From NCBI GenBank assembly GCA_037305845.1, contig CP147778.1, positions 992,001-1,056,000 on the forward strand: DNA of 64,000 nucleotides, in the 5' to 3' direction. Of this stretch, positions 59,719 through 64,000 are shown one piece after another; the first letter of the stretch is position 1, and every line of letters begins with the position of its first letter. Source of the DNA: Candidatus Freyarchaeum deiterrae (lineage in GTDB: Archaea > Asgardarchaeota > Jordiarchaeia > Jordiarchaeales > Jordiarchaeaceae). The notes beneath the pieces were generated by a model that saw only the letters and a list, made by a program, of their open reading frames with translations, made no database searches and was not told where the DNA came from. The translations under genes and the position numbers were made by a program.

Positions 59719-60951
59719 TTAATTTTTGTAAGCCTTTTCTAAGGCTCTTATTGCTGGCAGAGATCCGCATCCATCAGTTATGAAACTTATGAATGCTTTA
59801 CCCGCGGTGCTCATGTATGATATTTTTGAAGCGTAACCATACTTTTCTACTGCTGCAATAGTATGCCCACCGCCAACAAGAGAGTATGCCTTCGATTTCG
59901 TAACAGCTTCAAGAAGTTTACGCGTACCAATTGCAAATTGAGGATCTTCATAGACACCAGCAGGGCCATTAAAAACAATGGTTTTCGCGTTTTTCAATAT
60001 ACGAGTGAATTCATCTATTGTCTTGCTCCCGATGTCCTTAATTGGTTTATTTGTAGGCAAATCTTCAACAAGAATCTCTACGCGTTTTCCCCCATCGTCA
60101 ACTGCAACATCTTTTATAATTTCAATTACATCACTGTATTTATTTAGAAGACCTTTAACCTCGGAAATTTTATCCATCAGTCCTTTCGAGGAAAGCATTT
60201 TTTTGTTTACATCACCAATATCAATTCCCTTACCAAGCAAAAACAGGTAAGAAATTATGCCTATAGGTAAGATTATATCTGCAATCTTATTATCCAAAGC
60301 TTCTTTCATTATTTCGTAACTATCCTCAGCTTTCATTCCCCCCAAAACATAGACTGATGGTCTTTCAGGATCCTCTGTAACATTAAGAATAGAATAAACC
60401 TCTTTTTCCATTACTCTTCCTGCAGCAGAGGGCAAGACATAAGTAAAACCGACCATAGAAGTATGATTTCTATGAGCTGTAGAAAAAGCATCATCAACAT
60501 AGATATCAGCTACGCTCGCAAGCTTCTGAACCATGGGAGAATTGATTTGCTCCTCTAATGTTTTCGCACCATCTTCCTCGTCACAAAACCGCACGTTTTC
60601 TAGAAGTAAAATTTCACCATTTTTCATATTCTTTATACTCTTGAGTGCCCTGTCTCCGTAAACATCATTGACGTATTTCACGGGTCTCCCCAAAATCTCG
60701 CTCAACACTTTCCCATGCTCTTCCAATGGTATAAAATCATCGTCTCCTTTCCGCCCTTGGTGTGCTAGAACGACGACCTTTGCACCATCATTTGATAGTT
60801 CTGAAATAGTACTAGCATGTGCCTTGAATCGCATACTATCCGTTATTTTTTTGGTTGCTAAATCGATAGGAGAGTTTATGTCAACTCGGACAAGTACCGT
60901 TTTATCTTTAAAATCGAAATCATCCAATGTATAAAACTTCTTACCAGCCAA
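59719..60951 (-). CDS. pgk: Phosphoglycerate kinase
   Basis: VRVDINSP, AHQGR, LLENVRF, DAFSTAHR, NGPAGVYE, GGGHT. Confidence 0.95.
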   Translation of the reverse strand: MAGKKFYTLDDFDFKDKTVLVRVDINSPIDLATKKITDSMRFKAHASTISELSNDGAKVVVLAHQGRKGDDDFIPLEEHGKVLSEILGRPVKYVNDVYGDRALKSIKNMKNGEILLLENVRFCDEEDGAKTLEEQINSPMVQKLASVADIYVDDAFSTAHRNHTSMVGFTYVLPSAAGRVMEKEVYSILNVTEDPERPSVYVLGGMKAEDSYEIMKEALDNKIADIILPIGIISYLFLLGKGIDIGDVNKKMLSSKGLMDKISEVKGLLNKYSDVIEIIKDVAVDDGGKRVEILVEDLPTNKPIKDIGSKTIDEFTRILKNAKTIVFNGPAGVYEDPQFAIGTRKLLEAVTKSKAYSLVGGGHTIAAVEKYGYASKISYMSTAGKAFISFITDGCGSLPAIRALEKAYKN

Positions 60952-61128: not shown

Positions 61129-61659
61129 CTATATTTTTTCTGATAATTTCTTTTTCTTCGGCCTCCAATACTTCCACTTATTATTCCAAGATTTCCACCC
61201 AGTTTTAACATATTTCTCTCTACCTTCAAGATCCCCCATAACCCACCTTATAAGCGCGTAAAATCTATCCCTGCCGCTCTCGACAGTCAAAGTTTCCCTA
61301 GGAATCCCCAATGAGGCATAATAATCCAAAAGAGAGTTCTCAATCAGATCTTGCAATTTTCCTTCGATACGAGTAGGTTTCACTTTATATCCTTCACCCA
61401 TTAGAGTCAAACTGATCTCACTCAGAACTGAACCAGTACAAATCTCGATCTCTTCATCCTTAGTAACATTTAGCTCCTCCAAAGCCTCCCTTGCTAATCT
61501 TAAGGCCTCCTTAAGATAAGTTTTCCTAGCAAAATTAGGAGGACGAAAATGAGAAACATCAATCATTTTCACAACATATTCACCAGTTTCTTCACGTAGA
61601 AACCCCAATAAACAACCACCAACAAGGTCGCCCCATCCAGCATCATCTATTCTAAGCAA
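61129..61659 (-). CDS. Hypothetical protein with an RNase HII-like N-terminal motif
   Basis: IDDAGWGDLVGG resembles the RNase HII GxDEAGRG motif; GAGGGA Shine-Dalgarno before TTG. Confidence 0.65.
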   Translation of the reverse strand: MLRIDDAGWGDLVGGCLLGFLREETGEYVVKMIDVSHFRPPNFARKTYLKEALRLAREALEELNVTKDEEIEICTGSVLSEISLTLMGEGYKVKPTRIEGKLQDLIENSLLDYYASLGIPRETLTVESGRDRFYALIRWVMGDLEGREKYVKTGWKSWNNKWKYWRPKKKKLSEKI

Positions 61660-62074: not shown

Positions 62075-62563
62075 TTAAGCCATTAGCAATGTACGTACTA
62101 GTTTACTGCGTAGAATGCCCTTTTTACTTAATTGGGACATATCTCTCATGTAATTAATTTTGATGTACTCATCGCCACCAGATAAGTTTGCGTATTTCTT
62201 ATACTCTTGAAAAAATTCGGTAAAATCGTTCGTTCTTGTCAGTTTAGATTCAACCTCGGGGGGAATTCTTATCAGAGCATCGGGATCTGAACATCTTCCA
62301 CTTGTTATTTTGAAAGTTTGCACACCACTTTTACACATGTAAAACAAGTTCCCTCCTGCATTAAACTGAAGTGTGATATCTCCTAAATTTTTATTCGCTT
62401 CGATAACCTCTGGATATTCCAACCTTGCCACAAACCAGTCCAACAATGTATCATCGCCATGATAAGAATTATCAGTCTCTAAATTTGTGGGAATGTTGTT
62501 CTCTGTGTCAGTATTTTCTTCGGCATTTCTGGATTTGCCTTTAAATATTTTTAACCTACTCAC
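62075..62563 (-). CDS. Hypothetical protein, possibly divergent SCP2-like
   Basis: TLQFNAGGNLFY...ITSGRCSDPDALIRI resembles the SCP2 pattern; start placed at GTG after GAGGT. Confidence 0.55.
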   Translation of the reverse strand: MSRLKIFKGKSRNAEENTDTENNIPTNLETDNSYHGDDTLLDWFVARLEYPEVIEANKNLGDITLQFNAGGNLFYMCKSGVQTFKITSGRCSDPDALIRIPPEVESKLTRTNDFTEFFQEYKKYANLSGGDEYIKINYMRDMSQLSKKGILRSKLVRTLLMA

Positions 62564-62864
62564 AAAACTAACCTCACTTGCAGCTATAATTAAAAAGCGC
62601 CTGAAGTAGGTTAAAAATATTTCTAAATTTGATATATAAAATTGAGAAAATAACAAAAATCACATTCATATAATGCGAAAAATGAAATAAATACTAAAAA
62701 AATTGTCTACTAAAATGCCAAGCTTGAATATATGCAGTCAAGGGGATATTTAGCATCCATGAACAAAATTAAAGAAAGGAATAAAAAAAATATTTAAGAC
62801 CAAACAAACCAACTAACCATCATTAAAAAAATAACTAACATCACCAAATAAAAGGGGAGAACCA

Positions 62865-64000
62865 ATGGCAAAAATAACAGTCTCCTTAATAAAAGCAGAT
62901 ATAGGTTCCTTAGCTGGCCACACAACCGTACATCCAGACTGCCTAGAATCAGCCAAAAACTCGTTAAAAAAAGGAAAGGAAGACGGAACAATAATTGATT
63001 ATCACGTAACCCACGCAGGCGATGACCTAGAGCTAATAATGACACACAGAAGGGGTGAAAACAACGAAAAAGTACACAAACTAGCCTGGGACACCTTTAC
63101 CAAAGCAACTGAAATTTCGAGGAAACTCAAGTTATACGCAGCAGGTCAAGATCTACTCAAAGACACATTCAGCGGAAACGTCAAAGGAATGGGACCAGGA
63201 GTCGCAGAAATTGAATTCGAGGAAAGAGCAAGCGACCCTCTAATAGCATTCATGGCAGACAAAACCGAGCCCGGAGCCTTCAACTATCCGATATTCAAAA
63301 TCTTCGCAGATCCCTTCAACACAGCAGGACTAATAATAGATCCCTCTCTACACCAAGGATTCACATTTGACGTTCATGATGTAATGGAAAACAAAGGAGT
63401 ACCAATACAATGCCCGGAAGAGATGTACGATCTTTTAGCATTAATAGGAACAACAGGTAGATACGTAATCAGAAAAGTGTGGAGAAAAGACAAATTACCA
63501 TGCGCGGCAATCTCCACAACACGGCTCAGCTTAATAGCGGGAAAATATGTAGGAAAAGACGACCCTGTTGCCCTCATACGTGCTCAAAACGGGCTACCAG
63601 CCACCGGAGAAATTTTAGAACCATTCGCATTCCCTCACCTGGTAGCAGGCTGGATGAGAGGCAGTCACACGGGACCTCTAATGCCTGTCAGCGTTAAGAA
63701 CGCTGTTTGTACTAGGTTCGATGGACCGCCAAGAATTGTTGCCTTGGGCTTCAACATTTCCGACGGCTACTTAGTTGGACCAATAGACCTATTCGACGAC
63801 CCAGCATTCGATCTAACAAGACAGCAAGCGAATGAAGTAGCAGACTTCATGCGCAGACACGGACCTTTCATGCCACACAGACTAGGACCCGAGGAGATGG
63901 AATACACATGCGCGAGTTTCTTTATACTTGTATATCGAATCGCGTTCGAATACAATTGAGGTTTGCCTCACGCAGTAGAACACCCTTCCCGGAGTTCTGA
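62865..64000 (+). CDS. fbp: Bifunctional fructose-1,6-bisphosphate aldolase/phosphatase, interrupted by an intron (exon 1 62865-63907, exon 2 from 63981 running off the window)
   Basis: IKADIGS, GDDL, YAAGQDLL, DKTEPGAFN, YVGKDDP, GWMRGSH, GPFMPHRL..EMEYT; the conserved TLPGVL resumes at 63982 in another frame. Confidence 0.95.
63908..63980 (+). other. 73-nt BHB-type intron in the fbp mRNA
   Basis: Central helix AUAC/GUAG, 3-nt bulges AC^A and AA^C, closing stem UGCG/CGCA and two internal hairpins; excision gives in-frame GAA UAC AC|C ACC CUU CCC GGA GUU CUG. Confidence 0.85.

What the first reader, a model, noticed from the sequence alone, without database searches (positions are those of the whole stretch)
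63908..63980. Bulge-helix-bulge intron inside the FBP aldolase/phosphatase mRNA (candidate archaeal pre-mRNA splicing)
Seen in sequence: fbp reads normally to ...PHRLGPEEMEYT, then diverges into CASFFILVYRIAFEYN-stop. After 73 nt the sequence C ACC CTT CCC GGA GTT CTG encodes TLPGVL in another frame, the continuation expected for this family (EMEYTTLP.V). The junctions fold as a relaxed BHB. The central helix is AUAC(63902-05)/GUAG(63975-78), with 3 Watson-Crick pairs and one A.G. The 3-nt bulges are ACA (63906-08) and AAC (63979-81), the intron-side stem is UGCG/CGCA, and the exon-side pairing is weak (GAGAUGG/CCCUUC). Inside are two hairpins, UUGUAU-A-UCGAA/UUCGA-AUACAA and UGAGG-UUUG-CCUCA. 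Established: the archaeal splicing endonuclease EndA cuts after the second nucleotide of each bulge and RtcB ligates; mRNA introns of this type are rare and best known in crenarchaeal cbf5. Applying that rule gives TAC AC|C ACC = Y-T-T-L-P-G-V-L, exactly in frame. Inference: this probable Asgard archaeon splices a core gluconeogenesis mRNA with its tRNA-splicing machinery. That would parallel eukaryotic non-spliceosomal RtcB-type mRNA splicing and could gate enzyme activity. More such introns may exist elsewhere in the genome, mis-called as frameshifts or pseudogenes.
Basis: partly seen in the sequence, partly recalled or inferred. Interest (0 to 1): 0.95.

Follow-up and report, generated by a model that had tools for sequence, protein, structure and literature searches.

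The report
tRNA-type intron in Asgard fbp mRNA
The only gene for a key sugar-building enzyme in this Asgard archaeon is interrupted by a 73-base insert shaped like a tRNA intron; it is one of about twenty such inserts in the genome's protein genes, so these relatives of eukaryotes very probably splice many messenger RNAs with their tRNA-splicing enzymes, which published work shows for only one archaeal coding gene.

Summary
Confirmed by comparison; no RNA data. Removing 63908-63980 gives a normal 365-aa FBP aldolase/phosphatase. The insert is genomic (three independent assemblies) and sits at the same codon in every Freyarchaeum-like relative examined (70, 73, 81, 89 nt). Those lengths cover all three frames, which excludes a fixed frameshift. 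The bulge-helix-bulge ends are conserved, with one compensatory change and a 15-pair exon-exon helix; exon 2 is under purifying selection. A splice-signal-free alignment re-found it: 13 of 19 frame-breaking inserts in this genome have the motif (0.3 expected), as do 9 of 12 in a sister family. About 20 such introns sit in this genome's protein genes, including rtcB and cbf5 at the published crenarchaeal site. The A.G mismatch is a family trait: all six central mismatches among 33 introns are A.G/G.A. A broad-specificity (alpha-beta)2 EndA and RtcB are encoded. Best reading: EndA/RtcB splicing (0.92). Regulation is untested; a functional retained-intron tail is possible but weakly supported. 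The scan noted this intron earlier in sister genomes, and the class widely; in print I found only cbf5 and one Haloferax 5'-UTR intron.

The parts
62865..63907 (+). fbp exon 1 (FBP aldolase/phosphatase codons 1-347 plus two bases of Thr348)
   Evidence: PF01950 match, profile 1-349 of 361 for the unspliced product; aligns to ST0318, PDB 3R1M/1UMG, through the intron-less sister protein; single copy in the genome
63908..63980 (+). 73-nt relaxed bulge-helix-bulge intron
   Evidence: same site in relatives at 70, 73, 81 and 89 nt
63883..63900 (+). 5' arm of the long exon-exon helix (codons L340-E346; G341, P342, E343 codons invariant)
63902..63908 (+). central helix 5' strand AUAC and 5' bulge ACA; predicted cut between 63907 and 63908
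   Evidence: helix strand invariant in 14 sequences; cut rule from PMC2738675
63909..63912 (+). intron stem 5' strand UGCG, pairs with 63971-63974
   Evidence: 100% paired in 14 sequences, with one G-C to A-U compensatory change in L287
63922..63955 (+). internal AU-rich hairpin of the intron
   Evidence: 85.6% of cells paired, three pairs with changes on both sides; the predicted register varies between lineages
63906..63959 (+). reading frame of the retained-intron product: Thr348, a 16-residue hydrophobic tail and TGA; this is what public databases annotate
   Evidence: coding constraint on the tail equivocal
63971..63981 (+). intron stem 3' strand CGCA, central helix 3' strand GUAG and 3' bulge AAC; predicted cut between 63980 and 63981
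63981..64000 (+). fbp exon 2 (continues to the stop at 64033-64035 outside the window; encodes TLPGVLKKLDNRFMKED; 63983-63999 is the 3' arm of the exon-exon helix)
   Evidence: pN/pS 0.18; variable sites 4/1/11 by codon position; matches family consensus

Best explanation
The insert is a pre-mRNA intron removed by the tRNA-splicing machinery. Shown in sequence: the transcript can fold so that a long exon-exon helix brings the two ends together around a 4-pair central helix (one A.G pair), two 3-nt bulges and an intron stem. Inferred from established archaeal biochemistry: the (alpha-beta)2 EndA cuts after the second base of each bulge (63907/08 and 63980/81) and RtcB joins the exons. The junction reads TAC ACC ACC CTT and restores the conserved C-terminal helix of FBP aldolase/phosphatase. 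The intron was gained once in the Freyarchaeum lineage and is one of at least about 20 endonuclease-type mRNA introns in this genome; fbp gained other such introns independently in another Asgard family.
For: Frame and family motif restored. Same site in all relatives of the genus, absent in the sister family and 80 other loci. Lengths 70/73/81/89 with fixed ends. Compensatory change in the intron stem; 91.5% of cells paired against 37-54% for slid controls. Exon helix specific to intron-bearing genes. Exon 2 under purifying selection. Motif-free census: 13 of 19 frame-breaking inserts have the motif against 0.28 expected, 9 of 12 against 0.19 in the sister genome, and 0 of 17 and 0 of 12 among in-frame stop-free gaps. 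Only the EndA cut register yields homologue-matching joins: 18, against 1 and 3 for shifted registers. All six central mismatches in 33 introns are A.G or G.A. A cbf5 intron lies at the published site. EndA alpha has the L1 loop lysine and aligns over the catalytic region to A. pernix 3P1Z, and a second EndA paralogue and RtcB are present.
Against: The motif is relaxed (A.G plus an A.A mismatch next to the 3' bulge) and does not appear as a BHB in the minimum-energy fold of this genome's sequence. Most motif pairs never vary, so covariation rests on few events among related sequences.
Confidence: 0.92

Rival explanations
1. Splicing occurs but is deliberately partial. Retention yields a near-full-length enzyme (348 native residues) with a 15-16-residue hydrophobic tail that works as a degradation tag or alternative C-terminal helix, switching gluconeogenesis off. 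This adds to the best explanation and does not replace it.
For: The intron lies at 95% of the gene; its retained tail is 17 residues against 0-10 for 15 other introns in the genome. In 7 lineages the tail frame is always open, with pN/pS 0.50 and conservative changes (column-shuffle P 0.038 and under 1/1500). The imperfect A.G pair is fixed. The genome also encodes ADP-dependent sugar kinase and class I and II aldolase families, so a futile cycle is conceivable (inference).
Against: The most divergent relative (89 nt) shifts the distal tail out of frame while keeping it as an RNA hairpin. With it included, pN/pS over codons 4-12 is 0.73 (P 0.53) and the BLOSUM P is 0.03. Hairpin covariation explains part of the third-position pattern. 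A.G mismatches occur in other introns too. U-rich sequence reads hydrophobic by default. The tests were post hoc on related sequences.
Confidence: 0.2
2. Translational recoding (programmed frameshift or ribosomal hop) bridges the insert on an unspliced mRNA.
For: A hairpin-rich insert followed by a selected downstream frame; Thr codons flank both ends.
Against: Insert lengths 70, 73, 81 and 89 fall in all three frames. There is no stop right after a take-off codon, as in T4 gene 60 (own knowledge). Genome-wide joins work only in the EndA register.
Confidence: 0.03
3. The insert is never removed; the annotated 364-aa protein is the only product and exon 2 is a relic.
For: All 15 listed database members end in the unspliced tail. 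AlphaFold models residues 350-357 as a helix, though the alignment supplied contained the normal helix in those columns.
Against: Exon 2 has pN/pS 0.18 and mostly third-position changes. The replaced residues V353, K356, L357, R360 and F361 are highly conserved in the family. Non-coding motif bases are invariant.
Confidence: 0.03
4. Assembly artefact, or a small mobile element with a target-site duplication that is excised at DNA level.
For: ACAC occurs at both ends in this genome.
Against: Present in three independent Logan assemblies and many other genomes. Single copy in the genome. The second ACAC is ATAC in most relatives, and removing one duplicate would lose a near-invariant Thr. No meaningful Rfam match.
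Confidence: 0.02

Closest known systems
cbf5 pre-mRNA intron of Desulfurococcales and Sulfolobales (Watanabe 2002; Yoshinari 2006; Yokobori 2009, PMC2738675)
   Same: Short ORF-less intron inside a coding sequence, relaxed BHB ends, cut between bulge bases 2 and 3, hetero-oligomeric EndA. This genome carries a cbf5 intron at the same catalytic Asp codon.
   Different: Central-carbon gene, not an RNA-modification gene; Asgard lineage; near the 3' end so retention gives an almost complete protein; one of about 20 in a genome, not a lone case; splicing not yet shown.
Haloferax HVO_1309 5'-UTR BHB intron (Schwarz 2020, PMC7714728)
   Same: mRNA substrate of EndA, found as a circle and cut in vitro.
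   Different: Lies in an untranslated leader; the paper names cbf5 as the only other mRNA case.
Non-canonical tRNA introns of Freyarchaeia and Atabeyarchaeia (PMC11291895; bioRxiv 10.64898/2026.10.13.758758)
   Same: Same lineage, same motif class, same enzyme, repeated gains.
   Different: Term searches of both papers showed tRNA introns only; the preprint never mentions mRNA or cbf5.
Eukaryotic IRE1-initiated XBP1/HAC1 splicing
   Same: Protein-only, structure-directed removal of a short frame-changing intron that swaps the C-terminus; RtcB ligase in animals (own knowledge; IRE1 splicing reviewed in PMC13149111).
   Different: The nuclease is IRE1 acting on two stem-loops, not EndA on a BHB; regulation is established there and untested here.

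Membership tests
EndA-spliced archaeal pre-mRNA intron (cbf5 type) | Interrupts a coding sequence; removal restores the conserved frame | tested here: met
EndA-spliced archaeal pre-mRNA intron (cbf5 type) | BHB or relaxed BHB at the borders | tested here: met
   Relaxed form: 3 Watson-Crick pairs plus A.G, 4-pair intron stem, offset exon helix; conserved with one compensatory change. The strict hBHBh' form is not met.
EndA-spliced archaeal pre-mRNA intron (cbf5 type) | Cut between the second and third bulge base gives the correct junction | tested here: met
   (computational only)
EndA-spliced archaeal pre-mRNA intron (cbf5 type) | Broad-specificity (alpha-beta)2 EndA with L1 loop, and an RNA ligase, in the genome | tested here: met
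   loop criterion from PMC5829648
EndA-spliced archaeal pre-mRNA intron (cbf5 type) | Spliced mRNA or excised intron observed | not testable with these tools
EndA-spliced archaeal pre-mRNA intron (cbf5 type) | Cleavage by the cognate EndA in vitro | not testable with these tools
   bench experiment
Group I / group II self-splicing intron | Ribozyme core recognisable by covariance models; several hundred bases | tested here: not met
   73 nt; only a chance-level Rfam match at E 4.9
Programmed frameshift or translational bypass | Constant frame offset, or matched take-off and landing codons with a stop after take-off | tested here: not met
   lengths in all three frames and no stop after Thr348
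MITE-like insertion | Multiple copies, terminal inverted repeats, conserved target duplication | tested here: not met

The most novel reading that the evidence does not exclude
Asgard archaea use regulated intron retention as alternative splicing. The fixed imperfect splice site of fbp would yield two proteins, the normal gluconeogenic enzyme and an isoform with a hydrophobic, destabilising or inactive C-terminus, so that EndA activity switches gluconeogenesis, much as XBP1/HAC1 splicing switches a C-terminus in eukaryotes.
Probability: 0.2. Interest if true: 0.9.

Novelty: new variant of a known kind. Interest (0 to 1): 0.72.

Why it matters
Published archaeal mRNA splicing, in the papers I could search, is cbf5 plus one 5'-UTR intron. 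Here core genes for metabolism, translation, chromatin and splicing itself are split by endonuclease-type introns in close prokaryotic relatives of eukaryotes, with sites shared between families and gained repeatedly. That would mean intron-rich, protein-spliced mRNAs exist in archaea without a spliceosome, which bears on how a lineage comes to tolerate introns. It also means Asgard gene annotations and metabolic reconstructions are systematically wrong at these genes: every database member listed for this FBP aldolase/phosphatase carries the unspliced C-terminus. It is directly testable with metatranscriptomes already deposited for this lineage.

Tried and rejected
A spliced-junction pattern in JGI metagenomes gave one hit, L275, a 58% GC intron-less fbp only about 67% identical to this gene, so not evidence. 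Searches for a spliced-form protein among full-length and fragment homologues found none from this lineage. A de novo motif plus ORF-join scan without homology had no power (observed equal to shifted-register nulls); a first Python version timed out. The ppsA, kae1, radical-SAM and queE sites noted by other readers were not recovered under my filters; that is not a refutation. ARAGORN found only 17 tRNAs, so no tRNA-intron census was made. No paper on the ST0318 C-terminal loop was in the library; its role is from memory only. The AlphaFold model of the unspliced protein says little about the tail because of the alignment used. The promoter/terminator scan gave nothing above chance. The coding-tail signal weakened when a divergent relative was added.

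Full report
Setting. The window is G000:C1:992001-1056000 of a single-contig 3,576,204-base genome, 40.7% GC. Its fbp protein clusters with proteins named Freyarchaeota / Ca. Freyrarchaeum, and the sister family matches Jordarchaeales records. The size fits the complete 3.58-Mbp Freyarchaeum genome of PMC11291895; that identification is an inference.

Observation. fbp starts at 62865; the open frame ends at 63959 with a tail foreign to the family. Removing 63908-63980 gives a 365-aa protein with the family C-terminus and a stop at 64033-35. Pfam FBPase_3 is matched to position 349 of 361 by the unspliced product and to 360 by the intron-less sister protein. Among about 215 homologues, T348, T349, V353, K356, L357, R360 and F361 are highly conserved. 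The intron lies in the codon after Y347, which equals Y348 of ST0318; from memory this is the C-terminal loop that reaches the neighbouring active site, not checked here. The gene is single-copy and the insert has no second copy. Three independent Logan assemblies encode the identical unspliced protein, so it is not an assembly error.

Relatives. All five same-genus genomes carry the insert at the same codon; the sister family and other Asgard families lack it there, as do 80 further archaeal fbp loci. More Freyarchaeum-like contigs give 13 distinct versions of 70, 73 and 81 nt, plus one of 89 nt. These lengths are 1, 1, 0 and 2 modulo 3, so no fixed frameshift can rescue exon 2. Exon 2 is translated: pN/pS 0.18 against 0.07 for the gene body, with variable sites 4/1/11 by codon position.

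Structure. On 14 sequences the proposed fold is 91.5% paired against 37-54% for slid controls. The intron stem is 100% paired with one G-C to A-U compensatory change in the 89-nt version; the central helix has three invariant pairs and an invariant A.G; an internal hairpin shows three double-sided changes. A 15-pair exon-exon helix is 95.7% paired, while 76 intron-less fbp genes form 8.75 of the 15 pairs on average and the nearest sisters 5-7. The codons G341, P342, E343, E346 and Y347 that build it are invariant where the gene body shows 8% (four-fold) and 23% (two-fold) invariance. These sequences are related, so the counts overstate independent events.

Genome-wide test. I fetched a 2.1-Mb sister-family genome and aligned its proteins to G000 with a spliced aligner that has no splice signal. 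Of 19 well-supported frame-breaking inserts, 13 have a BHB at alignment-allowed boundaries (0.28 expected at random places, 0.21 with shuffled inserts). The reverse comparison gives 9 of 12 (0.19 expected). In-frame stop-free gaps give 0 of 17 and 0 of 12. Starting from the motif instead, cutting after the second bulge base gives 18 joins that match homologues across the junction; shifting by one base gives 1 and 3, none strong. The curated set has 20 introns in G000 and 13 in the sister genome. Those in G000 include rtcB, ahcY (three), a RuBisCO-like gene (two), porA, an Obg-family GTPase, nadE, mvhD, moaE and a flavin oxidoreductase (families checked on the sister homologues), plus gatE, cbf5, tyrS and alba (named from junction motifs). 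Bulges are strongly A-rich, mostly AAN, and all six central-helix mismatches are A.G or G.A, so the fbp mismatch is normal for the class. The cbf5 intron splits the catalytic Asp codon exactly as in Crenarchaeota. alba, cbf5 and gatE are split at the same places in the sister genome. One ahcY site is shared with two distant families, and fbp carries independent BHB introns at other codons in another family.

Machinery. Two EndA paralogues and RtcB are encoded. The alpha subunit matches A. pernix EndA (3P1Z, E 8e-43), with the L1 loop lysine and the catalytic region aligned. PMC5829648 ties that loop to cleavage of relaxed motifs and reports it in Asgard.

Mechanism. Shown: insert, fold potential, selection on both exons and on the motif, and the enzymes. 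Inferred: EndA cuts at 63907/08 and 63980/81 and RtcB ligates. Confidence 0.92.

Retained-intron tail. Unlike the other introns, retention here leaves 348 native residues plus a hydrophobic tail. Seven lineages showed coding-like constraint, but the 89-nt relative frameshifts the distal tail while keeping the hairpin, and the signal then fell to marginal. I give a functional second isoform 0.2.

Literature and novelty. Ten searches found cbf5 (PMC2738675) and the Haloferax 5'-UTR intron (PMC7714728) as the mRNA cases. The Asgard papers examined report tRNA introns. Subscription journals were largely not searched. Earlier notes of this scan describe this intron in sister genomes and many like it elsewhere; one reports RNA support on other DNA, which I did not check and do not count. 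Verdict: a real relaxed-BHB mRNA intron, a known mechanism used at an unreported scale; new variant of a known kind, interest 0.72.

Noticed in passing
G000:C1:1452796-1452824 (-), inside L034: rtcB itself carries a 29-nt BHB intron in the PDAHQGY motif, so the ligase would be needed to make its own message.
   Followed up: partly
G006 C1:996133-996176 and 996247-996276 (+); C1:849905-849982 (-); C1:806573-806601 (+); C1:445935-445963 (-): The sister-family genome has BHB introns in a Rab-like small GTPase (two), eIF2-gamma (two), an IF2-like factor and EF2, mostly within GTP-binding motifs (names from junction motifs).
   Followed up: partly
L019:2540-2573; L022:2570-2618 and 2205-2234: Independent fbp introns in another Asgard family, five codons upstream of this one and inside the YVGK motif; the latter is in frame without a stop.
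   Followed up: partly
L169-L172, L184, L189, L191, L192: ahcY introns: the KWE/F site is shared by the genus and one sister-family genome; the HPS site is shared by G000 and two distant families.
   Followed up: partly
G000 and G006 intron sets: Introns whose length is a multiple of three all contain an in-frame stop, no stop-free in-frame gap had the motif, and retained tails are very short (0-10 residues). This suggests selection against read-through products; detection bias not excluded.
   Followed up: partly
window 63965-63980: The intron's 3' end is far more conserved than its middle, and a TAG in the exon-2 frame lies immediately before the 3' bulge in all 14 sequences.
   Followed up: no
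window 64200-64280 equivalent (outside the window, minus strand): A 48-49-aa ORF is called downstream of fbp, mostly on the opposite strand, in most Freyarchaeum-like contigs, with no Pfam family.
   Followed up: no
window 62075-62656 (-) and 61129-61659 (-): Two ORFs between pgk (59719-60951) and fbp have no Pfam match; the second has an acidic N-terminal motif reminiscent of RNase H-like folds (impression only).
   Followed up: no
whole genome: ARAGORN finds only 17 tRNA genes, in line with the multi-intron tRNAs reported for this lineage.
   Followed up: no
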